Source of the DNA: Moniliella sp. 'wahieum'
Taxonomy: Eukaryota
Assembly (NCBI GenBank): GCA_003971905.1
Contig: RSEE01000085.1
Span: 1 to 64,000, forward strand
Reading direction: 5' to 3'
DNA length: 64,000 bases
Shown: in pieces, positions 20,431 through 57,400 of the stretch
Position numbering within the stretch: position 1 is the stretch's first letter
Layout of the letters: the number at the start of each line of letters is the position of its first letter
Program-made: the position numbers and the translations under genes
Notes under the pieces: model-generated
The model's input: only the letters and a program-made list of their open reading frames with translations
The model's database searches: none
What the model was told of the DNA's origin: nothing

Positions 20431-20614
20431 GCTTTCGGCGCGCGGGTTACGCTTCTTCTTGGAAAGGGGTGGAAAAGCAGTATCGGCTCCGGAACGGAGA
20501 CCAGGCATTCAGCCGTGTGGGGTGGGGGTAGGTGGGAAAAAAATTAAGTAGGGCTCAGGCGGGCAGACGAGAGAGGTGTAGTCTCCGCCTACTCAGAGGA
20601 TAGTGGGCTCAACC

Positions 20615-20774
20615 TGTTAATGCGAGGACAAAGGCCTACGGAAAGAAGAAGACAGAGGGAGGTGATGGATCTATTCCAAGAGAGGAGCCCGTTAGGGGCA
20701 GAACATAGAGGAGAGTCGGATAGAACAGCGCGATGCGTGATGCGTGATCAGCTGCATGCATGATGGCGCTGACA
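20615..20774 (-). repeat. Copia 5' LTR
   Basis: Identical copy of 15424-15583; followed on the minus strand by GGTTGAGCCC (candidate PBS). Confidence 0.95.
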
Positions 20775-21171
20775 GGACGGTCTTTCCTCGGCTGGGGCCC
20801 GCTGATTCTTGTTGGTAACTCAACCTCTTTCTCTTTCTTCTCCTATATAGGCGAGTTCCCTGGCGCTGGGTGTTGCACAGGGGATTCCAGTGGACGAGAC
20901 GGTGCCCAGTGTCTTTATGCACAACTGCCCCTGTTTGGGTTCCTAACGTGGCAGGATATGGAGATGGAGAGAAACGGCTGAGGATCATAATCATGAGGGG
21001 GAAAAGGTGGCGAGGTATATGTAGTTCGGAAAAGAAGAGAACATGTGCGAGCTGAGGCACACGGAGAAAAAAAGGGGAGCATCGACAAAGGGAAAAAACA
21101 GGGTCTAGAATAGATCAGGGTCCAGCCAACCTGGTGACCATGTGTGACTTTAAACATGTGACCAGGCGGGT

Positions 21172-23360: not shown

Positions 23361-23969
23361 GGTCCCTCCCCCATGCATGATGTTTTGGAGGGAATCCTGT
23401 GAACGGCGGTCGAGTCAGTGGGTTGGAACTGCTATAGGGTGTGTCCGTCCAGTGGCGGGAACAAGGCAAGAGTACGGCCCTTTGAAGTTTCGAGCGGAGT
23501 TACACACGTATACTCTAGTGCGGTACTACTCTACTACCAACAAAGCACCGCCAGTATACACTTTTGCCCGATTGCGCGAATTCGGGTCTGTCGGAACAAC
23601 AGTAGGAGAAATGGGTTTGCCCGCGGCCCGTTGGCGGGTCTAGACTAGGAGGGTGGCAGTGGATACTGGATGGATGTGGACCAATTGAAGCGAGCCTCAT
23701 GAACACACTAGTACGTCGAGCCGCCGTATATATATTCCGCCTATATAGCGGGTGTGGGGCATGCCGTGTGGGGATGCAACTTTCAAAGTGTGCACGGGCC
23801 GCCGCCACTTTGGCTGCGGCGGTTATATGCGCGTTTGAGCTTTAGTTTGCCTACTCAGTACTGCGGATGCAGCACCCAGCTGACGTACTCCGCCCCAGCT
23901 GCCCCTCCCCGCATCGGCCTCTCCCTTTTCGCCGTCGCCGTCGCCAGCACCCTCGCCCGCACCCTCGCC

Positions 23970-28040: not shown

Positions 28041-31000
28041 CTACCGCTTCGACGCCTGCAGACGATTGAGAGGAGGGGCGGGCGGGGGAGGCAGGTCCGA
28101 CGCCCCGACGCCCGACGCCCCGACGCCCGACGCTGCGACGCTGCGACGTTCAGACACTGTTCCGACGGGCGCGGATGCCCGTCCTGGGCGCCGCGGTGGG
28201 CTGGGACGCGTCGACGGAGGGAGGGGCGGCGGTTGCTGGCGGTGGGCAACTTGTGTTGTTTGTTCCAGCGGGCGAGTGGGTTTGGGCGGCGGTATAGCCG
28301 GCCTTATGAATGGCGTCAAACGAGCCAAACTCGAGTGCCAAGTGTTCGACGGGCATGCGATGTAGAAGCATCCGGGGGCGCTTTTGGCTTCCTCGAGGGT
28401 GCGGACAGAGCTGACGTAGGCCAGGCGGGCTTGGATGTCCGGGATGGAGGGGATGAGGGCTACGCGACGGCTCAGGGCGCCCATGCCAGGTACCCAGGGC
28501 AGGACCCAGCGCGCGACCAGCAGCCACCAGCCCGATAACGTGTCCCCATAGTCGCGTGGCGACGTGTCGTCAATCGAGCCTACGTCCACGGCGAAGACGC
28601 GCGCAGCACCAGCGGCAAACATGGTGGATACGGCAAGTTCCATGTAGCCGCCGTCGACGAGCATGTCCCCTCGTCCACCAGCGGCGGCACGAGGCCAGCG
28701 AGGGTCATGGAGCGCGGATGAAGCGCCAGGCATAGCCCGTGGTGTGGATCTCCATCCGGCTCCAGGTAACGTTGGTCGTGTTGCAGAAAAAGGGGAGCCA
28801 CATGTCCTCAATGTGCGTGTCGCGGAACGCCTTGAACACGCCGCGGTTGAACTCGTGGCCGGTGGTGTAGGAGGCATAGGGGTAAGTCAAGTCCAGCACA
28901 AAGCGCCACAAGGACGCCACGACCGGCAAACTTCTTACCCGTCCGTAACTCGGCACCAAGCCAGCCTCCTTGGCATACAAGCCGCCGACAAACGAGCCAA
29001 TCGACGTGCCGCCAATCAAGTCGATCGGTACCCCGGCCTCCTCCAGCGCGCTGATCACGCCCAAATGCGCAATCCCGCGCGCCCCACCACCACCCAACAC
29101 CAACCACGCTTGCCACACAACCGACGTGCCAAGCGGGAAAAGTCCGACAAGTGCGGCGGCCGTGCATCGGGCGCGGTGCCATCCGACCGTTTTTCGCGGT
29201 ACGTTGCAACCGCGATCCGATCTGGCCGCGCAGGCGCTTGAGTGCGCGCACTGCCGCTGCCCGCTCGTCCACCCGGCCATGGCGGCCACCGCCGCGAGCG
29301 GCGGCAGCGGCGGCATGGTCGCGGCCGTCATCGTGCCAGCGCGGCGGGCGAGTTCGGCCCAGTTGAAGCTGGTGGACGTGGCGCGGGAGCCAGCAAGCAC
29401 GCCGGCACTGGGCACCTTTTTGATTCCGGGCATCTCGACGTGGTGGTGGGCGAAGCCAGGGCCGGGTGCGGAGCCAAGCGCGTGTCGAGCCTGGCGGGAC
29501 AGAGCGGTCGGGATGGAGCAAGACGAGCTCTTTACGTGCGGTCGTCTTGATGGCCAACAACAAGCGTTCGTATTCGCCTACGGTGGGGTCGTCGCCAAAG
29601 CCGACCAGGAGCACACAGTCGGCCTGGCGGATCGAGGTTTGTGCCCAGGGCGAGGAGACGGCCGTGTCAACGACATAGAGCACCATGCGGTGCTGGCTTC
29701 CTGGCAGCCAGCCACCCGGCCAACTTGAGTTTGCCCATTCGGTTGAAACGCGTTGCGGCCCAGCACGCCCAGCACGGCGGCCTGGTTGAGGTAGACGGCT
29801 CTTCGCCTGTCGTTGGCTCAAAGGCAGCTTGGAGCCGACGCGCAAACGCCGCAATCGGCACTTCCCGCGTCACGGGCACAATCGCGACCGTTTTGAGATT
29901 GGGTTGCTCCGCCACATTTCGGTCCGGGCCGGTTTCTTGGGCCCGGCCATGCTGACCATGCTGCTCTCGCCGCCGCTCAGGAGGGGCATGGAAGGTGGGA
30001 AGGCACGGCACTGGCGCCGTGGTGCACCATGGCGCTCGATACACGCGGGCATGATCTGGGCCAGCTGGGATGCTAACGAAGGTTCCAATGCGCTACGGCG
30101 CGGAACAAGCTGACGGGGATGCACGCCAATTCGGTATCGCGGATAGCATGCAAGGTATGGTGCGCGGGGATCCGGTCACCACCTCCAGCTCGCGACCGAG
30201 TCGCCCATGCCAAACTCGTTGGCAATGTGGACATGGGACGAGCCAGCTTGGTCAGCGGCAATGGCGCGAAGACGGCCATTGATAACGAGGTAAACTGTTC
30301 TGCGACGTCGCCTTGACGGTAGATGACTTGGCCGGCTTGACATGCTGCCAATCCAACGCCGCGTCAATCTGCAGCAGCGTGGGCGACAAGAGCGATAAGA
30401 GTCGACGCCAGACTGAGCAAGACGGTCGGACGACGGTCCATGAGCTTATCCGCGCATGCGCCGGCAACAACACAATAACAATCCGTCCGCGCCGTCACAT
30501 TCACATACGACGCGCACCCAGTAGCGTGGCCAGGTACCGGCAATGCCACGCGACCAATCGAATAAAGCGGTTTCGCACTCCGGCCTCTGCGCCTTGTCTT
30601 GCACCCAGGTGTGCGGCGCCGAGGCGACCTTGGCTGTTCGTTCGCGCGACGAAGCGCGGTCGGGGCTCGTGGTGCCTGTGCTGGCCGGGGCAAGAGGCGG
30701 GGTGGTGGTGCGCTGGGCGGCGAGGCCAGTCGGGGACGAGATGGTTACATCCAGCTGTCCATCAATCACATAGAACAGACCGCCTTCGCGCTCGCCCGAC
30801 GAAATCAGCGTGTCGCCCGCATGGAAAAACTTGATCTCCACATCATTCTCAAATGGCAACGGCAAGCTCGAGTGGGGGAATGGGAAGCCAGGTATGTCCT
30901 GGCTCGGACCGCTACTGCCCCGATACGCAGGGGAAATCCGCTCGCCCATCCCTTCCTCGCCCTTGGCACCGCGGGAAGCGGCCGTGACTTCGGCGAGCAT

Positions 31001-36844: not shown

Positions 36845-38659
36845 TTAGAGGCTCTCGACGACAACTGGGTCTCGAGCCAGGGCAGCAGGCCCTCGGCGCC
36901 GCCTTCGCGTCCAATCCCGCTCTCCTTGACGCCGCCAAACGGCACGGTGACCTGGGAGATGAGGCCCGTGTTGACGCCGACCATGCCGACGTCGAGGGCG
37001 CGGGCGACGCGCTTGCAGCGGCGAGCGTCGTTGGAGAAAAAGTAGGCGGCCAGGCCAACGTCGGTGGCATTGGCCCGCGCCAGCACCTCCTCCTCCGTCT
37101 TGAACTTGTACAGCGCGGCAAGGGGGCCAAACGTCTCCTCGGTCGTCATGGGGCACTGGTCAGTAACGTTGGCCAGGATGGTAGGTGCAAAGAACAGACC
37201 CTCGCCGCGTTCGCCACCAATCAGCACCTTGGCGCCTGCTGCCACGCTCTGCTTGACGTGCCGCTCCACCTTGTCCACGCCGGCTTGGGAGACGAGCGGG
37301 CCATGGGTCGTGCTCTTGTCCAGCCCTGAACCGACTTTGAACTGCGCCACGGCCTGGACCAGTTTCCGAGCAAACTCGTCGTACACCGCTTCGTGCACAA
37401 AGATCCGGTTCGCACACACACACGTCTGGCCCGAGCCACGGAACTTGCATGCAATCGCCCCGGCCACAGCCAGGTCAATGTCCGCATCCTCAAACAAATA
37501 AACGGCGCATTGCCACCCAACTCGACAGCTTCTTCAGTGTCGATGCGCCCTGCTGGACCAGCAACTTGCCCACGCCCGTCGAACCCGTAAACGAAATCTT
37601 CTTGACGGTAGGACTCGTGCACAGTTTCTGCCCACGGCAATTTCCTTCTCGCCTCCCTTGGCCACCGTGAGCACATTGATGGTGCCCTTGGGGAATCCAA
37701 CTTTTCCGCCAAGTACGCCAGCGCAAGGGCCGTGTACGGCGTCTCGGCCGGCGCCTTGATCACCGTTGTGCAGCCCACCGCCAGCGCAGGCGCGATCGAG
37801 GGGCAATCACTACGGCAGACGCAAGAGCAGTTAGCAAGGCACCGAGCAACGGGGTAAACCTCCAATCCAAACCAGAAGACAAAAAGTAATGGTAAGGGTA
37901 AGAGGAGAGGGGAAGAAAAAAAACGTACTGCCAGAGGGAAGTTCCATGGCTTGATAAGTGCCGCGACGCCAACGGGACGAGTGGTGACCGTTGTTGACTA
38001 CGCCGGCACAGCCGGGGTCGGGGTGGAGCCGGGCATGCGCAGCGCTTCAGCCGAGTAAAAGTCAATGTATCCTGCTCCGTAGGCCACTTCGCCAAACGCA
38101 TCGGGCCAAGCCTTGCCATTTTCCAGCACAATCAACCGGGCAATGTCCTCTCGGTGGGCCATCAGTCGTGCAGCTTGCGAAGCAGCTGCGACCGCGCCGT
38201 GGCGGGCAGCGCGGCCCAGGGCTTGAACGCGTCCGAGGCAGCTTGGATAGCCTGCTCGGCTTGGTCAACGCCCATGTTGGGCAGGGTGCCGAGCAGCGCA
38301 CCGGTGGCCTTGTTGTGCACTTCAAACGTCGTGCCGTCCGGGACGGAGCTGATCCACTGGCCGTTGATGTAGGCGGCCTGCTGGAACAGCTCGGGGGCCT
38401 GGAGCAGCGCAGGCACGTCTTGCTTGGTGCCGGGGGCGACTTGGAGCCGTGGGGCATGGCGATCTGAGGGAGCGACATGGCGCGCGAAGAGGTGTGGAGG
38501 CAGCGGGGCGAGGCGGGGGTGGGGCGGGGCAGCAGAGTGCAGACACGGGGAAGCGGACGGAGAGGCGGCGCGGAGGCGGAAGCGGAGCGCGGGCAGGGCG
38601 AGGGAGAGGGCGGAGGGGGAGGCGGGGGGGCGTGGTGGTGGTGGGACGCAGAAACGCAT
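36845..38659 (-). CDS. UGA2: Succinate-semialdehyde dehydrogenase (ALDH5), probable mitochondrial presequence
   Basis: AYINGQW, IKAPAETP, KISFTGSTGVGK, ELGGNAPFI, CKFRGSGQTCVCANRI, EETFGP, PFGGVKESGIGREG; intron ~37810-37927. Confidence 0.9.
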
Positions 38660-39252: not shown

Positions 39253-40803
39253 TTACGGCACCGCCGCCTCCAACGGCTGCATGGAGAATGGGTCGCGGAG
39301 AGAGTGGTGCTGCTGCTGGTACCACTGCGTATAGTCCGCTTTGAGCGTTTGAATGTCGGCGTGGACCGCGGCGACCTTGGTGGCGAGAGCCATGAAGCTC
39401 GTGTTCTGCGCCTGGATCGCGTTCTGGATCGCATCGGGCGTGTAGTGTCGCGGTGGTCGATCGAGATGAGCTGGCGTTGGATTTCTTCGAGCGTACTCTT
39501 GTACCGCGTCACGCGCCGCGAATGTCCTGCACAGCCCGGGCAAAGTAGCTGCTCGCGCCAGCCTGTCAGTCACCTGGTCCATCCGGCACCCCTGCACCGC
39601 GCCACAACAGCCAACGGTTAGAAATGGCAAGAGGACGTACTTGAGGGAAGGAGCGCAAGTGCGAGTTGCAAACCCTTGCTGCCAGTTGTGGCCAATCTCA
39701 ACATGGTGTTGCTGTCTTTGCGGTCCACCTCCACCGTGCTCCGCAGATCAGTAATCTCAATGTGGTCCGAGTCCACTAGTGCCAACAACGATTGAGGTCC
39801 TAGAAGCCAGTACCAAACCAGCATCAGCATCAGCGTCTGCCGTTCGAGAGAAGATATGAAAACAAAAGGGTTTTTCTACGCACCGACTGAACCGCCCAAA
39901 TGGCCTGGGAACCTTTGGAAATCTCCTCGGCCTTGTTAGACGCCTCGAGCTGCTTGCGGATTTGGACTTGCTGCTGGATGAATTGGCTAAAAGAGGCAAG
40001 GAGAAGGTGTCAGTGGGAACGCTGGCATACCAAAAAGAAAAGACACGCGACGTACTCGAGTTGTTCGACCATTTGTTTTTGCTGGTCTGGCAAGTCGTTG
40101 AAGCGCTCCTTCTGTTGAAATGGGAACTGGAGGAAAGGATTTGGGGCGCGGCAGACGACGTGGCGGTCATGGTGGACATTCCGAACGGCTGTGCTGTGGA
40201 TGCACCCAACCCGCCTGCTGCAGGTGCACCAAACGTAGAGCCAAAGCCAATGCCAGAAGGTTGCTGCTGCTGCTGGTTTTGGGTAGAGAAAAGCGAGGTG
40301 GCTGTACCCTGAGTCCCAGGAGCAGTCTGATTTTGTCCAAAGCTAAATAGGCCTCCCGCCGCGGGTTGTTGGTTCTGTTGTTGCTGATTTTGACCAAACA
40401 ACCCGGTGCCAGTGCTGGCGCCGGGGGCCGCACCCGGCTGGGCAGAGGTGGTGGTGCTACCAAAGGAAAAAGCAGGCTTAGCCGCAGTGGCTGGTTGACC
40501 AAAGAGGCCACCTCCAGCTGCAGGCGCAGGCGCGGGGGTGGTGCCAAACAGCCCACCTGACGTTGTTCCAGCAGGTTTGGCGCCAAAGAGCCCGCCGGTA
40601 GCAGGGGGCTGTTGCTGTTGCTGCTGCTGGGGCTGCTGCTGTTTGTGTTGTTGGGCTGGCTGGGCAGGCTGCTGGCCAAAGAGACCACCGGTGGCGGCGG
40701 GCTGCTGCTGCTGCTGGCCGAAGATGCTTCCGGTGGTACCGGATGCGGGGGTAGAGGAGAAGAGGGTTCCCGACGTGGGCGTCTGTCTGGCCGCGCCGAA
40801 CAT
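39253..40803 (-). CDS. NUP49: FG nucleoporin Nup49/Nup58-45 family, with introns
   Basis: GGLFG/FSFG repeats followed by RFNDLPDQQKQMVEQLE and C-terminal coiled coil RYKSTLEEIQRQL..IQAQNTSFMALATKVAAVHADIQTLKADY..RDPF. Confidence 0.82.
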
Positions 40804-41070
40804 GGTGGCGGTGGTGGAGTGGTGGTGCCAAGGCCGGGGGCGAGGCGGTCAAGCAGACGCGAGGAGAGCAGGCTCGAATTGTAGAAAGCAGCAGCGTGGT
40901 TCCGCTGGCATTCCGCTGTCGGGGCTGCAACATTGCAAAACTGCACTGCTGGGCCGGCTGGATCTCTCTCGTGGTGTTGTGTATATATTTTGCGGGGGCG
41001 CCCTACACCCACTCCCTCAGGCGGACTGCTGCCTCCACCAGAGCACCATTCGCCCGTGTGGATGCCCCAC

Positions 41071-44102: not shown

Positions 44103-46719
44103 GTCGCAAACAAGAAGCGGCACAGATGGCGTGAGGAAGGGGAGGATAGAGGGGTAGAAAAGACGCCAGAGAGCCAGCTCAAGGCACAAGGATGTCTGTC
44201 CAGCAGAGAAATCCAGAGAGGGCGGGAGAAGGATATGCTTGGGCCAGCCAAGGAGGAAAGAGAGTCTAGGTATTAGGTTGTGGGCAGAGCCAGCTGCGCA
44301 CAAGGGGAAGGACAAGACGAGGTGGTAAGGGTGGCTGGGCTGAGGGAGGGACAACCCGCTGGCTTTAATATGACTGGAGAACGGCGAGCGGCGATAGAAA
44401 GCCAAAGTCACTCAATCGTGTCTAGTGACTAGTGACTGCATGACATGCGTATGGCAAGTATTGGGGAGCGAGACAACGGTGAGACCAAGTTGGGTGCTAG
44501 AATGGCCAGCCGGTGCCTAGAACGGCAGGTCGCCATCAATCGTATTAAACGACAGGCCCACTGCCTGCCCAACGTCCTCTCAAACCGTACAGTGGCGTGC
44601 ATGGTCTGGCTCTTGACGCAGAATCACTTGCCAATCACTGGTCACTCTATAGTCACTTTTTCTCACTGTCCCCAAGTACGGCGGATGGATTGACGCGCAA
44701 CCGCACCATGCCAATGATCACCACAACAGGTATACTAGCGCATGCCCACACTACCCCAAAGGAGGAGAGACGAACGACATGCTTGCAGCGCCAGTCGCGT
44801 ACTTCGAGAGTGAACTTCTTCCATCCTGCATCCCCTCTGACACAACAGCAGCCGATATGCACACTGGAGTAGGGTCGTGTGTGCGTCATAGGCAATGGAT
44901 CTGTGACATGTGACCGCCTTACTCAGACGCTCTCTCTTGATCACATTCATCGACAATCGCAGATCTTAGTTTTAGGTCTTACCGGTTACTCCGAAGGCAT
45001 TTGGACCAGAGGCCGTGTTGCCTTTTAGGGTGTGATCCTGAGAGATCCTTTTCCGCAACGCCAGGCACCACCGCCCACTCTCCCCTTCCGAAGGCGTTTC
45101 TGCCACTATGGGGATTGTGCCGATGAGAGACCCAAACACAACAGTCCCTACAAAAGTAGAATTCAACGTTCAACGTTGAGCAGCCACTACACCATCCGTG
45201 TTCTTGCCAACATTGCACCGCCGGTGTGGGCCCGAATATACGCTCTCAGTCTGCAGACCATGGATCGTTTGATATCCTCTGTGGATGCCCCAACATATCT
45301 GTGGTCCCCCAACCTGGTGACCATCATCGTTGCCTCTCCATCGAAACGGAGGACACAGCGAGAGTGGATGCAGTCGAGGATGGGGTCTATAGGCATGTCA
45401 CGCTCGATGGTTTACTCTCGCCAAGTGTCTGCTGTCGTCCGCATGCTCAGGGCATCCACTATCCAGCCGTCAACGCGTCAACACACTTGTGGTGTAGAAG
45501 CAATGTGTATCATGTCGCAGCGTGATGCATGATGAAAGGCAGTGGTATAGTAAACGTTAACGTTAACGTTACTTGCATGATACTTTGGCGCTGCGAGCTG
45601 GGGCGGCGTGTGTTGGATGTGACAGGTACGCGGTGCCGGTCCTGCCGTTACGCGTTACGCGTTACCTGTTACAAGCAATGGGGAAACAATGGATGTGTCC
45701 CAGTGTCGATAGGATGGCGCGGCTGCCGGCTGAGGTGCTGAAGTTGAGAGAACTGGCTGATGTTGGTTGGCCAAGATTCTATGTTCAACGTTCGCGTTCA
45801 CGTTCATCGATCATCGTTCAGCTTACTCAGCGTTCAAATGCAAAGCATTGGTGGCCCAGCGACTAGGACGCCGATGGCATGTTGGTGATTGTGTGACGGG
45901 TGTCACATGTGTGTCACACATCCGACGCAAGCAATCACAGCCACTGACCAGTGCCAAGCGGTCCCGTTCCGCCCCTATTCCGCTGCTCTGTCTGCGCGCC
46001 TGACGACTGCCTTGCCCTGATTAATGATTATCGATTAGCCCTGATTGCATCTCCACCACTTCGTCTGCCTTGCTCGCCTCCCACCTGCCCAACCGACTAT
46101 TCGCACCATGTCACACCTTGAGCTTCTGCATATGGACGGCATGACCAAAGGAGTGGCAGTGTGGCTTTTGGGAGTTTCGTTAATGTCGCATACGTCGAAC
46201 CACGAACCCACTCTGTCTGTAGCTGGGTGTCCATGGCAACGCCGGGACGGCGTGTGGAGCAGACCGTTCATATATTCAGGAGCCTTGCGGGCCATCGCGG
46301 GGCCGAGGTGGAGGCGGTGTGTGGCGACGACAGGGGCGCAGCATGGTCCTTCGCCTGGTGCTGGGCAGTGTGGGCGTGGGGGCAGTGGGGGGGAGGTGGG
46401 CAGGGCAGCCCCCGCAGACTGCCGCCGTGCCGGCGGGCGCGCTGGTGGGGGTCTCAGGGGCTTATATTTTGGCGGAAGACCGACGGTCCATGCATCCCAT
46501 GCGTTGCCCCCTGCAGGCGTCGCCTACTTCGCCTCGTCTATTTTGCCTCGCCGATCCTGCCTCGCTTGTACCATCCTCCGCCCGCCGCCTTCACGCCGCT
46601 CACGCCGCTCACGTCCCGCACGACTCCTCTGACGCCCTCCTCCGACCTCCGATCTCCTCCTCGTCTCCGCCCCACCATCCTCTCAGCCCCCCCGCTCCAC
46701 CTGCATTGCCCTGGGCACG

Positions 46720-49700
46720 ATGGGCTTCTTCAGCCGTCTCTGGCACCTCGGCACGGCAGCCCCTGCCCCCCCGCCTCTCCCCCGCCCCCCCTGCCACGAC
46801 CTCCTCTCACGCCCCCGACGACCATCGCACCACCACCTCTGCCTCCCGCACCGGCAGCTCCTCTCCCGTCTCGCGCGCCTACTCGGCCTCACCCCACTCC
46901 TTTATCGACGGCCTCAAGCGCGCCGCCCACCCCCACCATCACCACCACTCTTCTTCCCGTAAACCCGATGCCTCCTCCGCTTCCCACTCGGTAACAGCCA
47001 CGCCCGCCTCCGGCCCAGCTCCCGCGGGCGGGGGGAAGCGGACCCAACGGCACAGCGTGGCTACGGGCGGCCTGGCGCGTCTGGTACGCCGCCCCGCCCA
47101 GAACACCAAAGCCTCCTCCTCATCCTCCCCCATCATTGCTCCCACCCCAGCACAACCGTCGACCCATCGCGCCGCGCCGCCAGCCCAGCGATCGCGCCCA
47201 TGGGCCGCCTCCCGCCGTCCCCGAGCGGGCAAATCGAACCTCCGACAACAATCTCCCCCACCGGAGGTAGTCTCTACTCCTCCTCCGAAGGAGCTCGCAC
47301 CGACACGTCGTTCGTCAGTAGCGGCATCGATCTTAGCCGCTCTCCGCTTAGGTACGTTGACCCAACTGTGTGGTGCTATGTGTATGATGGAATTAGGAAC
47401 TGACCTTTGCGCCCACACAGTCTTGCCTGGCAATCTTTTGCTGCCGAAGGTTCTGAGCCCCGCCCTGGCTACCTCTCGTCCGGAACACCCTTTTCTACGC
47501 CCCCCGTTGCCTCGCAAGAAATCCTACGGGAGGTGGAACCAGAGATTCCTCCCCTCTCCTTGTCGGATGGAGCTCCGGAAGGATCGGATGGTGTCGAAGC
47601 GATTTCCTCTTCGTATGGCTCGCCGCCCATTTCACTTCGAGCCACGAGCCTGGGCGGGCAGGATGCCGGAACAGCAGGAAACGACAGTAGCCAGCCCCTG
47701 TCAGAGACTGCATTATCGCTGTCTGCCTCTACAAAGGTGCGGGAAGAAACGGCGCCAGTCTCGGCCAAGGCGAGTTCGCACCTCGCTCTTCCCGAACCGA
47801 ATGCACCTACTTCAAGTACTACCCCGGTCCTTCTTCGCCTCGAATGTCTCCTCGCCTCTCGCCCCGCCTTTCGCCCCGCCTGTCCCCTCGTATCTCGCCT
47901 CGCCTTCTCCCCCACTTGCCCGGCCACGGTCGGGTGTCCCAAGTCACAAACCGATTCCTTGCCGCTACCCACAATGCCAAACAACGGATGTTTTCACATG
48001 GCCCTGTCAGCCCCGAGACCACTCCTCTCTCCCAAGACGTGACGAATCAGACGGACACAAAGTCAGCCCCGGCACTTGTGCATCCCGAAGGTGACACGCT
48101 AGATCGACTTACGACCATCGACGAGGCTACCGACGGATCCGCTCTGCACAACGAAGTTTTGAGGGGCAAGGCGAAGAAGATCTTGCATTGGACGTTGCAT
48201 TTGCCCCTCAATCGACTCATACCAGCTACTTCGGCTCTGCTGGTGAGTCTAGTGCGGTATCCCCCTTGGCCCGGCATACAGAGGTCGGGCGTTCACCTGC
48301 CATGCAAGGCGTGCCTCAGCCCCAAGACAGTGATGGCGCACAGTGCCTAACGGAAGAAGCCGATGCTGTGGAGTTCACCGGACTGGATGCTTTCCATCCT
48401 CTGGACCAAACCGGTCCTGTCCCCCCGGTGGACGTGCCCCCTCTCCCTTCCACCTTGGAAGGAGAAGGTGAAGAAGACTTTTCCCTCGACCGGGCGTTTG
48501 CGCCCCAGTCGACCCACACCAGCTGGTCGGGGTCCTCCGTCGTCTCGCCCCCCATTGTTCCTTCGAACAGGAACCACTCAACCTGTCCACGCCTCGACCC
48601 GTCTCGCTGGCCACCGCTTCTCAACCCTTCGGGGACGAGACGGAAGGCATGGAGGCGGACGGTTTGGTATCCTTCCATCCAGCTGACCAGCAAGCCGACA
48701 TTCCCGTCGCAGCGTACTTCTTCCCTTCGCTTGACACATTTGGAAACGGGAGTTACAATGCGTCGTCGGCGGGGGAGGAGCGCGAAGGGGAGGAACAACC
48801 AGATGGACCCACCGCATCCGTCCAATCAGCGTCCAAGGTATCTGCTCGCACCGAGATAGCAGCGGCAGAGGCCGAGGCGCTGAACACGTTGTCCCCGGCT
48901 GACGAGGCGGTGACACCAATGGCGCATCCGGTGGCTGAGGCGCACGCCCCCGCGTTCGAAGGCGAGGGCCAGGAAGACTTTTCGCTGGACCAGGCGTTCG
49001 CCCCTCGCTCGACGCATACGAGTTGGACCAGCTCATCGCCCGTCGTACCACGCGCTACCACTCAGCCATTGGGCCCCGTCGGCCGCATGCCATCCCTTTC
49101 GTCCTTGTCTTCGGCCGTGCAGCCTCTAGGTGATGACAGTGATGATGTGAGCTACGGCGGCTTGGACGCGTTCCATCCGGTTGACCAGGATGCCACCACG
49201 CCGTTGGCCCACCCAGTGCAGGCCCCACCCGCATTCGAAGGGGAAGGCGAGGAAGACTTCTCCTTGGACCAATCGTTCGCGCCCGCTCGACCCATACCAG
49301 CTGGGCAGGCTCCTCCCCCGTCGTTGCTCGGGCGCCCATCCCCGAGGCGACGGTTGTGCGTTCCATGCCTTCCCAATCGTCACTGTCCTCGGCCGTTCAG
49401 CCGTTCGGGGGTGATTCGGACGATGTGAGCTACGGCGGCTTGGAAGCCTTCCACCCGGTTGACCAGGATGCAACTACGCCGTTGGCTCAACCGGTGAGGG
49501 CCCCACCCGCATTCGAAGGGAAGGCGAAGAGGACTTCTCCCTGGACCAGTCGTTCGCGCCTCGCTCGACCCAGACCTGGGCAGGATCCTCTCCCGTCGTT
49601 GCTCGAGCCCCAATTCCGACGGTAGCGGCTGTGCGTCCGATTGCGTCCACTTCGTCCCTCTCGTCCGCCGTTCAACCGTTCGGGGAAGAGGACGATGATG

Positions 49701-52700
49701 TGAGCTACGGCGGCTTGGACGCGTTCCACCCAGTCGACCAGGATGCCACGACCCCGATGGCCCAACCAGTGAAGGCGCCGCCCGCGTTCGAAGGGGAAGG
49801 CGAGGAGGATTTCTCCTTGGACCAATCGTTTGCGCCCGCTCGACGCACACCAGTTGGGCCGGATCCTCTCCTGTGGCTGCCAGGGCCCCATTTCGGGTAG
49901 CGGCTGTGCGCACCATGCTGTCCCAGTCGTCGCTGTCGTCCGCCGTTCAGCCGTTCGGGGATGATGCGGACGATGTGGGGCTACGGAGGCCTGGAAGCCT
50001 TCCACCCGGTTGACCAGGACGCTACGACCCCGATGGCCACCCAGTGCAGGCCCACCCGCATTCGAAGGGGAAGGCGAGGAGGACTTTTCTTTGGACCAAT
50101 CGTTTGCGCCCCGCTCGACGCACACCAGCTGGGCCGGGTCCTTGCCGATCGCCGCCAGGGCCCCCATTCCGACGGTAGCGGCTGTGCGCACCATGCTCTC
50201 CCAATCTTCGCTGTCGTCCGCCGTTCAGCCGTTCGGGGATGATTCGGACGAAGTGAGCTACGGTGGGTTGGACGCGTTCCACCCTGTCGACCAGGGTGCC
50301 ACGGCCCCGTTGGCTCAACCGGTGAAGGCCCCGCCCGCGTTCGAAGGGGAAGGCGAGGAAGACTTCTCCCTAGACCAGTCGTTCGCGCCCCGCTCGACCC
50401 ATACCAGCTGGGCTGGATCCTCTCCCGTCATCGCAAGGGCGCCCATTCCGAAGGTAGCGGCTGTGCGTCCGATTGCGTCCACTTCGTCCCTCTCGTCCGC
50501 CGTACAGCCTCTGGGTGATGACAGCGATGATGTGAGCTACGGCGTTTTGTTCGCCTTCCACCCGGTTGACCAGGATGCCACTACGCCACTGGCTCAACCT
50601 GTGAAGGCCCCACCCGCATTCGAAGGGGAAGGGGAAGATGACTTTTCGTTGGACCGGTCGTTCGCGCCTCGCTCGACGCACACCAGCTGGGCCGGGTCCT
50701 CTCCGATCGCCTCCAGGGCCCCAATTCCGAAGGTAATAGCGGCTGTGCGTCCGAGGCCTCCCACTCATCTCTGTCCCTCGGCCGTGCAGCCTCTGGGTGA
50801 TGAGAGGGATGATGTGGCCTACGGAGGCTTGGACGCGTTCCACCCAGTCGACCAGGACGCGACCACGCCGTTGGCCCAGCCCGTGAGGGTCCCGCCCCGC
50901 GTTCGAAGGGGAAGGCGAGGAAGACTTCTCCCTGGACCAATCGTTTGCTCCCCGCTCGACCCGCACCAGTTGGGTTGGATCCTCTCCTGTCGTCGCCAGG
51001 CCCCCTATTCCCGAGCAGACGGTTCTCCGTTCCATGCCTTCCCGCTCATCTCTTTCGTCGGCCGTGCAACCTCTGGGAGATGACAGTGATGATGTGAGCT
51101 ACGGTGGGTTGGATGCTTTCCACCCGGTCGACCAGGATGCCACTACGCCGCTGGCCCAGCCAGTGAAGGCGCCGCCCGCGTTCGAAGGGGAAGGGGAAGA
51201 GGACTTTTCTTTGGACCAATCGTTTGCGCCCCGCTCGACCCGCACCAGTTGGGCTGGATCCTCTCCCGTCGTCGCCAGGGCCCCCATTCCGACGGTAGCG
51301 GCTGTGCGCACCATGCTCTCCCAATCGTCGCTTTCGTCCGCCGTCCAGCCGTTGGGGGAAGAGGGGAATGATGATGTGAGCTACGGCGGCTTGGACGCCT
51401 TCCATCCTGTCGACCAGGGTGCCACGGCCCCATTGGCTCAACCGGTGAAGGCCCCGCCCGCGTTCGAAGGGGAAGGTGAGGAGGACATCTCCTTGGACCA
51501 GTCGTTTGCGCCCCGCTCGACCCATACCAGCTGGGTTGGATCCTCTCCTGTCGTCGCAAGAGCCCCTATTCCCGAGCAGAAGGTTCTCCGTTCCATGCCC
51601 TCCCGCTCGTCCCTCTCGTCCGCCGTACAGCCTCTGGGTGATGACAGCGATGATGTGAGCTACGGCGGTTTGGAAGCCTTCCACCCGGTTGACCAGGACG
51701 CTACGACCCCGATGGCGCAGCCAGTGCAGGCCCCACCCGCATTCGAAGGGGAAGGCGAGGAGGACTTTTCTTTGGACCAATCGTTTGCGCCCCGCTCGAC
51801 GCACACCAGTTGGGCTGGATCCTCTCCCGTCGTCGCCAGGGCCCCCATTCCGACGGTAGCGGCTGTGCGCACCATGCTCTCCCAATCGTCGCTTTCGTCC
51901 GCCGTCCAGCCGTTGGGGGAAGAGGGGAATGATGATGTGAGCTACGGCGGCTTGGACGCCTTCCATCCTGTCGACCAGGGTGCCACGGCCCCGTTGGCTC
52001 AACCGGTGAAGGCCCCGCCCGCGTTCGAAGGGGAAGGCGAGGAAGACTTCTCCCTAGACCAGTCGTTCGCGCCCCGCTCGACCCATACCAGCTGGGCTGG
52101 ATCCTCTCCCGTCATCGCAAGGGCGCCCATTCCGAAGGTAGCGGCTGTGCGTCCGATTGCGTCCACTTCGTCCCTCTCGTCCGCCGTACAGCCTCTGGGT
52201 GATGACAGCGATGATGTGAGCTACGGCGTTTTGTTCGCCTTCCACCCGGTTGACCAGGATGCCACTACGCCACTGGCTCAACCTGTGAAGGCCCCACCCG
52301 CATTCGAAGGGGAAGGGGAAGATGACTTTTCGTTGGACCGGTCGTTCGCGCCTCGCTCGACGCACACCAGCTGGGCCGGGTCCTCTCCGATCGCCTCCAG
52401 GGCCCCAATTCCGAAGGTAATAGCGGCTGTGCGTCCGAGGCCCTCCCACTCATCTCTGTCCTCGGCCGTGCAGCCTCTGGGTGATGAGAGGGATGATGTG
52501 GCCTACGGAGGCTTGGACGCGTTCCACCCAGTCGACCAGGACGCGACCACGCCGTTGGCCCAGCCCGTGAGGGTCCCGCCCGCGTTCGAAGGGGAAGGCG
52601 AGGAAGACTTCTCCCTGGACCAATCGTTTGCTCCCCGCTCGACCCGCACCAGTTGGGTTGGATCCTCTCCTGTCGCGCCAGGCCCCCTATTCCCGAGCAG

Positions 52701-53730
52701 ACGGTTCTCCGTTCCATGCCTTCCCGCTCATCTCTTTCGTCGGCCGTGCAACCTCTGGGAGATGACAGTGATGATGTGAGCTACGGTGGGTTGGATGCTT
52801 TCCACCCGGTCGACCAGGATGCCACTACGCCGCTGGCCCAGCCAGTGAAGGCGCCGCCCGCGTTCGAAGGGGAAGGGGAAGAGGACTTTTCTTTGGACCA
52901 ATCGTTTGCGCCCCGCTCGACCCGCACCAGTTGGGCTGGATCCTCTCCCGTCGTCGCCAGGGCCCCCATTCCGACGGTAGCGGCTGTGCGCACCATGCTC
53001 TCCCAATCGTCGCTTTCGTCCGCCGTCCAGCCGTTGGGGGAAGAGGGGAATGATGATGTGAGCTACGGCGGCTTGGACGCCTTCCATCCTGTCGACCAGG
53101 GTGCCACGGCCCCATTGGCTCAACCGGTGAAGGCCCCGCCCGCGTTCGAAGGGGAAGGCGAGGAAGATCTCCCTAGACCAGTCGTTCGCGCCCCGCTCGA
53201 CCCATACCAGCTGGGCAGGATCCTCTCCCATCGTTGCTCGGGCGCCCATCTTCGAGGCGACGGTTGTGCGTACCATGCCCTCCCGCTCGTCTCTCTCCTC
53301 AGCTGTGCAGCCGTTCGGGGAAGAGGGGAATGATGATGTGAGCTACGGCGGCTTGGACGCTTTCCACCCTGTCGACCAGGATGCTACGACCCCTCGACCC
53401 CATTCCCCTGTCGGTAAACCAGTGCTGCGTTCAAGCGCCCCTGCCCTCGAAGGCGAAGGCCAAGATGTTTTTGCATTGGACCGTATTTTTGCACCTCGCT
53501 CCACTCATACCAGCTACGCAGGCTCACCCGTCGCGCCTGAATTTGGTGCCCGGGACCGAGCCGGACCTCTCCGTCCCTCTGGTTGGGGGGCGACGCGCGC
53601 TGCTTCCCCCTCTTCCGATGATATCCATCACCCCCCTCCTCCCCCACTAGAGACCGGCCACGAAGCGGTTACCTTTGCGGGTCTTGACTCGCTCCATCCC
53701 ATGGATCAGGCCCAGGTTGCTGTCATATGA
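46720..53730 (+). CDS. Very large (~2300 aa if indels are repaired) uncharacterised protein: S/P/H-rich N-terminus plus a ~93-aa tandem-repeat array
   Basis: ATG 46720 (MGFFSRLW); consecutive plus-strand frames with the same repeat; 581-aa uninterrupted segment 51034-52779; stop TGA at 53730. Confidence 0.7.
48150..53720 (+). repeat. Coding tandem array, ~279-282 bp unit, ~19 copies of the FEGEGEEDFSLDQSFAPRSTHTSW core
   Basis: Core motif at ~48157, 48455, 48955, 49234, 49512, 49787, 50061, 50340, 50619, 50902, 51181, 51463, 51742, 52024, 52303, 52585, 52863, 53145, 53447; many differences between units fall at synonymous positions. Confidence 0.95.
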
Positions 53731-54426
53731 TGTCAGTCACACCTTCCTCCCCCATGCTATTCGTCTTTCGATGAGCTGTCTGATTCATGATTCACTACTC
53801 TCAACCGCAACTGGACAATTCTTTTTTCGTCCCCCCCCCCCCTTTTCTCTCTCTTCCCGTAAGCTCCACTTCTTCTCTCGGTGACCGAATGAAACCAAGA
53901 TGTGTTCCTCTTCCCACTTGGTAGACTGTCTGGTATAGTATCAAGACAGGACGACGGTGCATCACATTTTGACTGACCTTCCTGCGTCCTTGTCGAATAG
54001 TCGGTGCGCCAGTTTTGCTGGCTACGTCTTCAATTCCAAGCGGTTCCCATGCCGTGCCGCACCCAGGAAGGCCCTGGACGCAGCGGGGATACAAGCGGAT
54101 GCCAATCGATTACAAGCGATGAACCAGATAAAACAGACAACCGGGGGAGCGGAGGACAAGCGAGGTGACCTACTCCATCTCGTGTACCCTGTTAAGGCGC
54201 CAGGCACATGTTGTGGGGATGGAAATCAATTACTAGTAGTGATGGAGACAGAGCAACCAAACTGGGAAGGACTGATCAATACGACTGATCAAGGCGAGAA
54301 GACGACAGACGGAGTCAGGCACTCCCCCTCGGAGCTGATGCAGCACCGCTCTTTTCGCACTGTACCAGTACCACTCTCTGGCCTTCCTTCTACCCCACCT
54401 CGGTCCACGCCCACGCCATGGGATGA

Positions 54427-57400
54427 TCAGATCATCAACGGCCCGCCCGTCCCTTCGTCCATGTCGTCCTCGACAAAGTTGAGGCCGGCAAAGAGAGGCG
54501 AGTGCAGCACACCGTGCAGAGTGCTGGATGGAGGTCCCTGGGTAGTTGCCCCCCCCGGTAGAGCAAGCGACGGGGGCGCGGGGCGCGTGCTGGTGTCGGG
54601 AGCAGGGAGGGTAGAGGTAGAAGGAGAAGTGGAACCTGGCGCTGTTGGTACCAGTCCTGCATCGTCATTCTCAGCGTGCAGCAGGTCGGGGGCGGAGGAA
54701 GGGTGGTGTGGGGCGGAGAAGGCCAATTCCCGTTCGGCAAGTGGGGTGGGGGATACGGGGGCCGAGTGACCGAGGTAGACCGAGGGAACGCCTTGTGGGC
54801 GTGCCTCGGTGGGCGGGACAAGTGCACCAAGCGCTTGTTCGCGCAAGGCTTGTCGTTGCGCTTGGCGCGCGCGTTTTTCCCGCCGGGTCACCTTCCGTGA
54901 GCCCGAGTCGGATTGCAGATCGCTAGGCGGACCACGGGGAAAGAGCATGCCCATCCCAGGACCAGGCAGGGGTGAGAGGGTCACGTCGCCTGCTGCAGTG
55001 GCCGAATCAGCGGGGTTAGAGGACGCCAATCCAGTGGCTTGGTGCGCCGAGGCCATGGCCGAGGGAGACGGGGCCATGATGGTCAAGCCCAATGTGTCCA
55101 GCGCGTCGGCGCCATATCGTGTAGCCGCAGCCGAAGTCGGGCGCGGAAGCGACTGGTGTTGGCCATCACGAAAGGTGTTCATAGGCACCCGATTCCAGCG
55201 CGCAAAGGCCTGTTGGTTGAAACCCAATTGGCTCTGCGGCGTGCTCTGCGACTTGGACGTCGAGGGCGACTCACCCGCCAGGCGAGATAAGCTGGAGAGC
55301 GAAGGTGGAGCCAGCGAAGATGAACCCAAGGGCGTGGCGTTGGCTTTGCCAGACGTACCACTCACATCCCCTCGGGGCGGGGAGCTGCTGCCAGCCATAC
55401 GAAGTGCAGCAGCATCCAAAACATCGTCCAGATCCAGATCTACCATCTCCATACTCGCCTCACCTTCCTCTTCCCCAGCAGCCCCTCCCACAGCCTCGGG
55501 GAGGTAATGGAGCCGGGGCCAGTCATCTTGCCGCCGCGGGACGCACCCGAACGAGAACGAGACGGACCACCTGGGCCGGCGGGAGGATCGGCTGATAACC
55601 GTCTCATCCGTTTGGATGATTGGCGGGCGTGTCAAGCTGAAAAAAACAAAGGAGGTTAGTACCGGGCGACCAAGTGAGGCTCACAGGGGGCATGCCAAGA
55701 TAAACCGGGACGTACTTCGCGTGCTCTACTGCGCTTGGCAGAGGCTTGGGCGGCACGGATGCCAAGTCCCTTGTTGCGCACCGTGTATGACGGCAAACGG
55801 AGAAGGGGCTTCACGACGTCCGTCAATGACAGCACGGTGCTTGGCGTTGGAGGAGGTGGGGCGGAAACTGCCCATCATGGGGGGGCGGAGGGGCGTGGCG
55901 TGGATGGGCAAGGTGGTGGAACCAGTCATGGCATGGGCCAATGCGTCTGCCATCCACCCCGATTCACTCGGCTCCGTTTCCGCTTTGGGTGTGGGGCCAA
56001 CGCGAGTGGGGGATAGCAGGGGTGCTTGTGCTAGCTTCTGCAGTGGGAGGATCAGCTGCATCGGGAGCAGGAAGGTCGACGGGCACCAAGGATGTGTCCG
56101 CTTCGGTTTGGATCGGGGCCGGATCCACAGAGGCCAAGGCAGGCTCTGTCGTGGTCGCAGTGGCAGTGGCCGCGCTGGGAGCCAGGACGGAAGCGTCGAC
56201 AGGAGAGCCTGCTGGTTGCTTCGGGTCTGGTTCAACGAGCGGCTGCACCTGTGGGGGTGGAGCCAGCTCGAGGTCGAGGTCGATGTCAAGGTCATGAGTA
56301 GGTTTGGGCTCCAGTTCCGCTTCCGGTTCGAGTTTGTCCTGATGCTCGTGGGCCTGATCCTGCTCTTGATCTTGCTCTTGTTCTTGTTCTTGTGCTTGCT
56401 CTTGCTCTGCGGCCGCGAGGATTAGGGGGAAAGTGGTGGTGTTGTCTTCCCTTGTCCCTGAGGCCGCCGCGGGCACCAAGTCTGGTGGCAGGGAAAATGG
56501 GAACGCGCTGGATTGGGACGGCAGGGGTTTCACCCCGCGCGTTCGTCCACGGACACGGTCGAGGTCACGTTGGTTGCGGCGCAATTGGCGTCGACGTTCG
56601 CGGCGTTGTTGTTTGCGTCGTTGACGACCGAGATGGCCATGGGGCTCGACAGAGCCGACGAGCAAGCGGGAAAATTGCATATCTTCCTCGGCCATTTCGT
56701 CCGTCGTTTCGCCTTCCTCGTCGTTCATTTCCAGCTCGAGTTGCCGGGCCAAATCGAGGGTTTGGTGGTTGAGGTCGGGCCAGACAAGCGGTTGGGTACC
56801 GTTCGGGGGGGCGAGAGCAGAGGTGGAAGAGGATGCGGTCCCGCTCCGTGCGAGGCGGGGAGGGTGCTCGGTCAATGCCTCGAGTAACTTGGCCTCGTCG
56901 CCAGCAGACCAAGTGTTGTACTTGTCATCGCTGGTTGTGTCGTCCAAGGCGGTGCCCAGGACAGATGAGCGGCGGCGCTGGAGCAGCAGTTTTTGTCGTT
57001 CCTCTCGCAGTGCGTCTTGGGTTTGGGCAAAGTCTTCCGTGTTGACCCCAGGCACGTTGGGGTCGTCAACGGTACCATCGGGAGCCGGGAGGAAGGAGCG
57101 TTGGGCATGGTGCGCCAGTGTCGCCTCGTCGTCCGTGTCGAGATCGTTGCCATAAGTCAAGGCCAGCATACAATTCCTCGTCTGGACTCAGCTCTTCGTC
57201 CGAGCCGTCGTCCGACGAGCCATCCTCGCCAATGTACTCAAACTCTCCATCCGAGCCAAACACCGCCTCGCCATTGGACGCACGCGCATAGATCAAACGG
57301 CCATCCAGGTCCTCAATAATCAGCAGCGGCATCTCTGCTTGGCGCGCTGCTTCCTCGGCCAAGGCCAAGTCGGTGTTGACCACCGACCCAGCCTCGACTG

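What the first reader, a model, noticed from the sequence alone, without database searches (positions are those of the whole stretch)
46720..53730. Unrecognised giant protein made of ~19 acidic 93-aa repeats with two conserved aromatic motifs
Seen: each unit carries two conserved motifs, DDSDDVSYGGLDAFHPVDQ and FEGEGEEDFSLDQSFAPRSTHTSW, joined by more variable S/P/A linkers. The degenerate terminal units keep these cores (VEFTGLDAFHPLDQ, VTFAGLDSLHPMDQ, LEGEGQDVFALDRIFAPRSTHTSY), and many nucleotide changes are synonymous, which suggests selection at the protein level. There is no signal peptide, TM segment or Kex2 KR site, so it does not look like a secreted repetitive effector or a dikaritin-type RiPP precursor. 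Inference: an intracellular disordered multivalent scaffold or tether displaying many short linear motifs; acidic-flanked YGGL fits the Atg8-interacting [WFY]xx[LIV] pattern. I do not recognise the family.
Basis: partly seen in the sequence, partly recalled or inferred. Interest (0 to 1): 0.75.

Follow-up and report, generated by a model that had tools for sequence, protein, structure and literature searches.

The report
Acidic 93-residue repeat protein gene, fungal
A smut-related fungus carries a gene for a very long, acidic, floppy protein built from 19 copies of a 93-residue unit that has been kept by selection, but the gene looks broken only because the assembly is full of one-base errors, and what the protein binds is still unknown.

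Summary

It is not one ORF in this assembly. About 15 one- or two-base length changes and one intron split it into 15 in-frame pieces totalling 2276 residues.

I read the breaks as assembly errors:
- 9 of 12 array breaks sit in G/C runs.
- Three unit pairs are identical except for 4 one-base indels.
- A housekeeping aldehyde dehydrogenase in the same window needs 6 such breaks.

Selection on the protein is strong. Median dN/dS is 0.13 at mean dS 0.82, and only one of six frames is stop-free.

The units are predicted disordered (pLDDT 45-58), acidic (net -153) and free of dibasic sites.

No credible relative turned up in Pfam, PDB, 1.84 billion representative proteins, the ESM Atlas or metagenome contigs.

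"No signal peptide" is not secure: an upstream in-frame ATG at 46343 gives a hydrophobic N-terminus.

The Atg8 idea rests on a pattern match only. The gene is most likely a lineage-specific multivalent linear-motif scaffold. Expression was not tested.

The parts
46343..46345 (+). Candidate start codon B. It is in the same frame as exon 1, needs no frame break, and gives a hydrophobic N-terminus.
   Evidence: Kyte-Doolittle 11-residue mean 2.2 at residues 5-15 and 19-residue mean 1.57 at residues 26-44. The codon score in this frame is mildly positive (0.12-0.23) over 46350-46440. A 17-nt tandem repeat at 46362-46403 and a G-rich composition argue against coding.
46490..46492 (+). Candidate start codon C. 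It is in the same frame as exon 1, needs no frame break, and gives a non-hydrophobic N-terminus.
   Evidence: the pyrimidine-rich sense-strand composition typical of this gene's coding part begins at about 46495. The Kyte-Doolittle 19-residue maximum is 0.51.
46720..46722 (+). It is in another frame and needs a frame break in the C7/C8 runs near 46764-46790.
   Evidence: the frame of this ATG scores negative from 46740 on, while the exon-1 frame scores 0.23-0.42. It is preceded by an AT island at 46463-46470 and a 225-nt pyrimidine-rich tract.
46790..47352 (+). Exon 1 body: a basic (pI 12), Ser/Pro/Ala/Arg/His-rich low-complexity region.
   Evidence: 187 residues, no stop, and a positive codon score only in this frame. 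No Pfam match and no longer-length homologue.
47353..47420 (+). Predicted 68-nt spliceosomal intron with a GT-AG boundary, a fungal-type 5' site and a branch-point-like element 17 nt before the 3' AG.
   Evidence: sequence read directly. The best codon frame changes across it exactly as a 68-nt removal predicts. There is no transcript evidence.
47422..48146 (+). Exon 2, pre-repeat part: an acidic Ser-rich stretch, then five SPRL-type short repeats (TRF 47834-47906), with frame breaks near 47817 and 48150.
48155..48951 (+). Degenerate units U1 and U2. U2 carries an insert of about 73 residues. There is one frame break near 48567.
48952..53442 (+). Sixteen well-kept units, U3-U18, of 274-303 nt as assembled. 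They contain 11 indel events, near 49286, 49522, 49839, 49978, 50040, 50050, 50752, 50777, 50890, 52676 and 53169.
   Evidence: In the partition, u8 = u14 and u10 = u16 are identical, and u9 versus u15 shows 0 mismatches and 4 gap columns.
53443..53730 (+). Degenerate last unit U19 and the stop codon (53728-53730). G+C and codon score fall after it.

Best explanation
Window 46.3/46.7-53.73 kb holds a real protein-coding gene of a Ustilaginomycotina-like basidiomycete. It has two exons and one 68-nt intron.

The product has about 2,300 residues. A basic low-complexity head of roughly 450 residues is followed by 19 tandem units of about 93 residues. The array is acidic (about -7 per unit) and predicted disordered.

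The roughly 15 frame breaks are assembly (homopolymer indel) errors, not decay.

Mechanism (inferred, not shown): the islands act as short linear motifs. Nineteen copies give high-avidity, multivalent binding of one or two folded partner domains, so the protein acts as a scaffold, tether or clustering platform. The Ser/Thr-rich parts of the islands are likely phosphorylation sites that tune binding. The partner is unknown; Atg8-type and adaptor-ear-type pockets are untested leads.
For: Shown:
- The array has 19 units.
- Purifying selection acts in one frame only. Median dN/dS is 0.126, mean dS 0.82 and mean dN 0.10 over the 43 of 45 unit pairs with dS > 0.05.
- In the six-frame control on 8 units, the coding frame has 0 stops and pN/pS 0.21. 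The other five frames have 5-26 stops and pN/pS 0.33-2.46.
- Codon-usage score is positive only in the proposed frame of each segment.
- The breaks look like errors. 9 of 12 array events lie in G/C runs.
- Two M1-anchored unit pairs are identical and a third differs by 4 gap columns with 0 substitutions.
- The succinate-semialdehyde dehydrogenase gene at 36862-38443 (minus strand) needs 6 one-base-missing breaks plus 1 intron against an Exobasidium homologue.
- The Tfb4 domain is split between two frames at 1557/1620 with no visible intron.
- Disorder: AlphaFold2 on three units without an alignment gives pLDDT 45.2 and pTM 0.14. One unit with the 12-row alignment gives pLDDT 58.4 and pTM 0.10, with no helix of 4 or more residues and no strand of 3 or more.
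- Composition: S 13.7%, A 12.7%, P 11.8%, 1 Cys in 2276 residues, net charge -153.
- The conserved islands survive in the degenerate units U1, U2 and U19.

Inferred: multivalent motif display, phosphoregulation and the cytosolic location.
Against: - No transcript or protein evidence exists. No sequencing run was listed, so expression is untested.
- Error density is uneven. About 2.1 kb of the zinc-finger ORF (24540-26668) stays open in its best frame.
- Three of the 12 array breaks are not in homopolymer runs (48567, 52676, 53169).
- The start codon is unresolved. One candidate gives a hydrophobic N-terminus, which would place the array outside the cytosol.
- AlphaFold2 with only paralogous rows is a weak test of disorder.
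- No partner was identified. The published motif codes I tested do not fit: PAM2L [DE][DE]FxY 0 matches, DFGGF 0, FGxLV 0.
- The unit count could be distorted by assembly of near-identical blocks.
Confidence: 0.5

Rival explanations
1. Secreted or membrane-anchored surface protein. Translation starts at the upstream ATG (46343). The hydrophobic N-terminus acts as a signal peptide or anchor. The acidic disordered repeat array is displayed on the hyphal surface, alike in kind (not in sequence) to the repetitive secreted proteins of smut fungi such as Rsp3.
For: - The ATG at 46343 is in the same frame as exon 1, so no frame break is needed.
- Its N-terminus has a Kyte-Doolittle 11-residue mean of 2.2 and a second stretch with a 19-residue mean of 1.57.
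- The codon score in that frame is mildly positive at 46350-46440.
- Ser+Thr make up about 20% of residues.
Against: - All three frames are nearly stop-free at 46343-46719 (0, 0 and 1 stops), so openness carries no weight.
- That stretch is G-rich and holds a 17-nt tandem repeat. G-rich DNA translates into Gly/Val/Ala 'hydrophobic' peptides by chance.
- An AT island at 46463 and a switch to pyrimidine-rich sequence at 46495 look like a promoter/leader boundary.
- There is no Cys-rich region (1 Cys in 2276 residues). Rsp3 function needs its nine cysteines.
- There are no dibasic sites in the array.
- A pI-12 head is unusual for wall proteins (my own knowledge).
- The unit profile found no credible match among 1.84 billion representatives, so there is no sequence relation to any known protein.
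Confidence: 0.2
2. Folded or templated repeat. The units are not free linear motifs but fold together, or fold on a partner or by self-association, into a regular structure such as a fibre or solenoid. The conserved islands would then be structural cores.
For: - Conservation covers about 60 of 93 residues per unit, which is more than a typical short motif.
- Unit length is strictly kept at 279 or 282 nt.
- Aromatic and Gly/Pro residues are invariant.
Against: - AlphaFold2 gives pTM 0.10-0.14 and almost no secondary structure for one and for three units.
- Pro is 11.8% and net charge is about -7 per unit.
- No PDB sequence matches at E up to 1.
Confidence: 0.12
3. Recently dead gene. The array evolved as coding sequence, but the frame breaks are real mutations and the locus is now a pseudogene.
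For: - About 15 frame breaks occur in 7 kb.
- Three of the array breaks are not in homopolymer runs.
- Retrotransposon fragments lie in the same window.
- There is no expression evidence.
Against: - Conserved genes of the same window are broken at equal or higher density: aldehyde dehydrogenase has 6 breaks in about 1.5 kb, and Tfb4 is split between frames.
- Duplicated units show 4 indels and 0 substitutions over about 840 nt. Real decay would show more substitutions than indels.
- There is no stop codon inside any of the 15 in-frame pieces.
I did not recheck that note.
Confidence: 0.08
4. Non-coding minisatellite or transposon-derived satellite that only looks like a protein repeat.
For: It is a high-copy tandem array in G+C-rich DNA with long open frames on both strands.
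Against: - dN/dS is 0.13 at dS 0.82.
- There is a threefold excess of third-position changes.
- Only one stop-free frame exists among six.
- Unit lengths are multiples of three.
Confidence: 0.02

Closest known systems
Rsp3 (repetitive secreted protein 3) of Ustilago maydis (PMC5923269; passages read)
   Same: It comes from the smut lineage. [quoted passage not shown]
   Different: - Rsp3 is 869 residues long and has a predicted 23-residue signal peptide.
- It has a Gln/Pro-rich region and a Cys-rich region with nine functionally required cysteines.
- It has several short repeat types.
- Here there is 1 Cys in 2276 residues and one 93-residue unit type.
- The signal peptide is uncertain here, and there is no sequence similarity to any protein in the libraries searched.
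Kex2-processed repeat proteins (KEPs, e.g. Rep1, ustiloxin-type precursors; PMC7329392; abstract and methods passages read)
   Same: They are fungal proteins made of tandem repeats of up to 100 residues, and many are lineage-specific with no homologues.
   Different: KEPs are defined by an ER signal peptide plus repeats separated by KR/KK/RK/RR sites. The array here has 0 such sites, and its signal peptide is unproven.
Upa2, the multi-PAM2 scaffold of endosomal mRNA transport in Ustilago maydis, and the PAM2/PAM2L motif code (10.1101/455378, abstract from a search listing; PMC11572963, passages)
   Same: It is a very large (232 kDa) protein of a smut fungus that works through several short linear motifs in disordered regions, and acidic residues flank an aromatic core.
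   Different: - Upa2 has four PAM2 motifs, not 19 tandem units.
- No Pfam PAM2 match was found here at E up to 1.
- The published PAM2L search code [DE][DE]FxY matches 0 times.
Multivalent motif arrays of endocytic and nuclear-pore proteins (Eps15/Pan1-type DPF/NPF arrays, FG nucleoporins). These are recalled from my own knowledge; no call supports them.
   Same: They have many copies of a short aromatic motif in an otherwise disordered chain and act by avidity.
   Different: Their motifs are 2-5 residues long in irregular spacers. Here the conserved islands are about 30 residues long in strict 93-residue units. NPF, DP[FW] and FxDxF each match 0 times.

Membership tests
Any Pfam-A family | Match above the curated gathering score | tested here: not met
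   - Searches scanned 10 queries (9 distinct pieces; 53443-53727 was scanned in both) covering the head, U1-U2, six core units and U19.
- The best match was DUF3570 at 18.5 bits against a cut-off of 25.
- All other matches had E of 0.012 or worse and were below their cut-offs.
Kex2-processed repeat proteins (KEP) | At least 3 tandem repeats separated by KR/KK/RK/RR sites (definition from PMC7329392) | tested here: not met
   There are 0 KR, 0 KK, 0 RK and 0 RR in the 11 in-frame array pieces.
Kex2-processed repeat proteins (KEP) and Rsp3-type secreted repeat proteins | ER signal peptide | tested here: inconclusive
   There are three candidate starts. Only the ATG at 46343 gives a hydrophobic N-terminus, and coding potential upstream of 46720 is weak. 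No signal-peptide predictor and no transcript data were available.
Rsp3 | Cys-rich region needed for function (PMC5923269) | tested here: not met
   There is 1 Cys in 2276 residues.
PAM2 motif proteins (MLLE ligands) | PAM2 profile match | tested here: not met
   No PAM2 hit appeared in the Pfam scans at E up to 1.
PAM2L motif proteins (Rrm4 MLLE3 ligands) | [DE][DE]-F-x-Y code (PMC11572963) | tested here: not met
   0 matches in 1833 array residues and 0 in 443 head residues.
- There are 36 core matches in the array against 18.8 on average in shuffles.
- Units are copies of one another, so this is one observation, not 18.
Atg8-interacting (LIR/AIM) proteins | Binding to Atg8 | not testable with these tools
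   No Atg8 sequence of this organism is held (there is no genome), and sequences from memory are not accepted.
Gamma-ear / GAE-domain ligands | Published ligand motifs DFGGF (p56) and FGxLV (rabaptin-5) (PMC13581114) | tested here: not met
   There are 0 exact matches of either. A relaxed aromatic-Gly-x-hydrophobic pattern, recalled from memory, matches 14 times against 0.4 in shuffles, but the degenerate units U1 and U19 do not keep the glycine at the second place.

The most novel reading that the evidence does not exclude
This is a previously undescribed family: a roughly 250-kDa cytosolic scaffold. Its 19 units have each been kept by purifying selection long enough for synonymous sites to approach saturation. 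Each unit displays two new linear motifs that recruit many copies of a trafficking or autophagy module, for example an Atg8-type or adaptor-ear-type pocket. It would thus be a built-in high-valency clustering device peculiar to an unsampled branch of the smut-related fungi.
Probability: 0.3. Interest if true: 0.6.

Novelty: new variant of a known kind. Interest (0 to 1): 0.4.

Why it matters
If it is expressed, this is a clean natural example of a long tandem array whose units are old (dS about 0.8) yet individually constrained (dN/dS about 0.13). That is the opposite of the usual picture of young, homogenised, fast-evolving repeats. It argues that valency itself, or each unit's pair of motifs, is functional.

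It would offer two new candidate linear motifs, each with 19 natural variants, for partner discovery.

On the practical side, the case shows that this assembly carries roughly one indel per 250-500 nt in genes. Gene callers will therefore miss or truncate this and many other genes of the genome.

Tried and rejected
- **Sequencing runs:** none was listed for 45500-54500 and no RNA holder was listed. Neither polishing nor expression could therefore be tested, and read laying was not used.
- **Whole genome:** none is held, so paralogues and the organism's own Atg8 or adaptor genes could not be sought.
- **Homologue searches that found nothing usable:**
  - The near-length word-index search scored 8000 candidates; none reached E <= 1e-3.
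  - The longer-length search with the head region scored 7748 candidates and found none.
  - The ESM Atlas had no usable hit for four units. For the head it gave only scores of 0.80-0.85 to unnamed clusters.
  - The PDB profile search gave 0 at E <= 1.
  - The metagenome contig scan found 350 pattern matches, and 0 were confirmed.
  - Our own findings, searched by sequence, gave 0 windows.
- **Representative-library profile search:** it gave 8 proteins at E <= 1e-3, the best at 7.5e-10. On inspection all are other repeat proteins (HEAT-like, Ig-like, bacterial adhesin-like and similar) matched over short stretches summed across their own repeats. One of them, P0002, is built of units of about 52 residues and shares roughly nine residues with part of the second island, but it lacks the first motif and has a different unit length. 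I rejected all eight as relatives.
- **Literature search:** a full-text search for four motif strings found 0 papers.
- **Region-wise pN/pS:** I dropped that analysis. The island/linker contrast therefore rests on the conservation lines only.
- **NTE/patatin gene:** a Pfam scan meant as a third error control failed on my coordinates and was not repeated.
- **Complex prediction:** not used, because no partner sequence was available.
Full report
**What is there.** Tandem Repeats Finder reports a 279-nt period with 15.4 copies, 79% matches and score 4687 at 49086-53393. All lie between 48203 and 53692, spaced about 279 nt apart, and they fall in three different frames. There are none on the minus strand.

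A frame-aware tiling of one in-frame unit along the DNA maps 19 units:
- U1 (48155) and U2 (48452; 500 nt, with an insert of about 73 residues) are degenerate.
- U3-U18 (48952-53442) are well kept.
- U19 (53443-53727) is degenerate and is followed by the stop at 53728-53730.

An alignment of 12 in-frame units has 67% mean column identity. Variable Pro/Ala/Val linkers separate the islands. The observation of a repeat with two conserved motifs is therefore correct and far beyond chance.

**It is not one ORF as assembled.** The translation runs through all three + frames. Comparing each unit with its siblings locates 12 length changes in the array, near 48567, 49286, 49522, 49839, 49978, 50040, 50050, 50752, 50777, 50890, 52676 and 53169. 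A 68-nt GT-AG intron with fungal-type 5' site and branch point lies at 47353-47420, and the best codon frame changes across it as predicted. Between the breaks there are 15 in-frame pieces totalling 2276 residues, with no internal stop.

**Are the breaks real?** Three lines say they are mostly assembly errors.
- Nine of the 12 array events are one base more or fewer in a G or C run.
- The array contains a recent higher-order duplication of six units, about 1.67 kb apart. Within it, two unit pairs are identical, and the third pair differs by 4 gap columns with 0 substitutions over about 840 nt in all. Real mutation would give more substitutions than indels. Indel-dominated read error gives exactly this picture.
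- A conserved housekeeping gene in the same window is broken in the same way. This is a succinate-semialdehyde dehydrogenase at 36862-38443 on the minus strand. My frame-aware alignment to an Exobasidium homologue (P0010) needs 6 events of the 'one base missing' kind plus one 117-nt intron.

Two further observations agree. The Tfb4 domain at 1156-2003 is split between two frames with no visible intron at the junction.

Against this reading:
- About 2.1 kb of the zinc-finger ORF stays open in its best frame, so errors are not evenly spread.
- Three array events are not in homopolymer runs.
- No sequencing run could be listed, so this could not be settled with reads.

**It evolved as protein.** Among 10 in-frame units, variable columns by codon position are 29/22/70 of 95. 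Over the 43 of 45 pairs with dS > 0.05, median dN/dS is 0.126, with mean dS 0.82 and mean dN 0.10. In a six-frame control on 8 units, only the proposed frame has 0 stops and the lowest pN/pS (0.21). The other five frames have 5-26 stops and pN/pS from 0.33 to 2.46. Codon-usage scores are positive only in the proposed frame of each segment and fall after the stop codon. The units are therefore old and individually constrained. This rules out a non-coding satellite and makes a long-dead pseudogene unlikely.

**What the product looks like.**
- The array is acidic: pI 4.3 for six units, about -7 per unit, and net -153 for the whole model.
- It is rich in Ser, Ala and Pro, has 1 Cys in 2276 residues, and has no KR/KK/RK/RR site.
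- No 19-residue window downstream of 46720 exceeds a Kyte-Doolittle mean of 0.96.
- AlphaFold2 gives pLDDT 45.2 and pTM 0.14 for three units without an alignment.
- It gives pLDDT 58.4 and pTM 0.10 for one unit with the 12-row paralogue alignment, with only two three-residue helical turns, one in each island. This is consistent with disorder, though it is a weak test.
- The head is a basic (pI 12) low-complexity stretch. An acidic stretch follows, then five SPRL-type short repeats.

**The N-terminus is open.** Two upstream ATGs, at 46343 and 46490, are in the exon-1 frame and need no break.

The one at 46343 gives a hydrophobic N-terminus (11-residue mean 2.2, and a second stretch with a 19-residue mean of 1.57). 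The one at 46490 does not. The codon score upstream in that frame is only mildly positive, and all three frames are nearly open there.

That stretch is G-rich with a 17-nt tandem repeat. An AT island at 46463 and a sharp switch to pyrimidine-rich sequence at 46495 look like a promoter/leader boundary.

I favour a non-secreted product, but only at roughly 3 to 1. 'No signal peptide' is not established.

**Relatives.**
- No Pfam family reaches its cut-off.
- No PDB sequence matches at E <= 1.
- The word-index searches found no relative.
- The ESM Atlas gave nothing usable.
- The metagenome scan gave 350 pattern matches and 0 confirmed.
- The HMMER profile search of 1.84 billion representatives gave 8 proteins at E <= 1e-3. 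On reading them they are unrelated repeat proteins matched through short stretches.
- A full-text search for four motif strings found no paper.

The organism has no close relative in the protein collection. The dehydrogenase's best named hits are Exobasidium, Tilletiaria, Thecaphora, Sympodiomycopsis and Tilletia at 62-66% identity. Absence of recognisable homologues of a fast-evolving disordered protein is therefore not very surprising. No eukaryote genome collection was available for a DNA-level search.

**How it most likely works.**

*Shown:* a coding, constrained, acidic, probably disordered array with two conserved islands per unit.

*Inferred:* the islands are linear motifs, and 19 copies give avidity for one or two partner domains, making the protein a scaffold or tether. 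The Ser/Thr runs in the islands may be phosphorylated.

The core fits at that site in 18 of 19 units, but it occurs 36 times in the array against 18.8 in shuffles, and the units are not independent. Published codes for other smut or trafficking motifs do not fit: [DE][DE]FxY 0, DFGGF 0, FGxLV 0, and NPF, DP[FW] and FxDxF 0.

**Comparison with known kinds.** Among secreted repeat proteins of smuts, the closest in kind is Rsp3, which is acidic, unstructured and repeat-rich. Rsp3 has a signal peptide and an essential Cys-rich region. KEPs such as Rep1 need a signal peptide and dibasic sites between repeats, and these are absent here. Among intracellular proteins, the multi-motif scaffold Upa2 is similar in logic but not in motif or layout.

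**Verdict.** This is a real repeat-protein gene of unknown family. It is broken on paper by assembly errors, its location is unresolved and its partner is unknown. It is of moderate interest: a new variant of a known kind (a disordered multivalent repeat protein), notable for old, individually constrained units.

Noticed in passing
window 36862-38659, minus strand: A succinate-semialdehyde dehydrogenase gene (Pfam Aldedh, E 9e-73 for its C-terminal piece) is split over three frames. It needs 6 one-base-missing breaks plus one 117-nt intron against an Exobasidium homologue, and it shows an in-frame stop inside a conserved stretch. I read this as evidence of about one indel error per 250 nt in this assembly.
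   Followed up: yes
window 1156-2003, plus strand: The Tfb4 (TFIIH subunit) domain is split between two overlapping frames: profile positions 1-94 and 104-206. No recognisable intron lies in the 62 nt between them, and a T5 run sits at the junction.
   Followed up: partly
window 28708-29869, minus strand: The P-loop-like and patatin domains of a neuropathy-target-esterase family gene lie in two overlapping frames, which may be another frame break. My follow-up scan failed on bad coordinates.
   Followed up: no
window 23846-26668, plus strand: This is a 940-codon stop-free frame with C2H2 zinc fingers at residues 749-830. Its first 600 nt or so score better in another frame, so the long ORF probably hides a frame change or an intron near 24450-24540.
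   Followed up: partly
window 16571-22819: Retrotransposon fragments are present: RVT_2 at 16571-17494 (minus), the Pol beta-barrel domain at 17855-19099 (minus) and a weak RVT_1 at 21671-22819 (plus).
   Followed up: no
window 45550-46040: Short tandem copies of 7-base near-palindromes centred on T-any-A lie in the DNA upstream of the repeat gene, for example around 45553-45573, 45648-45668, 45783-45810 and 46022-46040. They are the same kind of pattern as noted earlier for this genome. None is seen between 46100 and 46720.
   Followed up: no
window 49111-53393: The array has a higher-order structure. A block of six units (offset about 1667-1674 nt) is duplicated at 90.7% identity overall, with a core of three units identical apart from indels. 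The unit count could therefore be affected by assembly of near-identical blocks.
   Followed up: partly
window 39760-40848, minus strand: This is an FG-repeat nucleoporin gene (Pfam Nucleoporin_FG, E 1.5e-13). It is an unrelated example of a multivalent aromatic-motif protein, 6 kb upstream.
   Followed up: no
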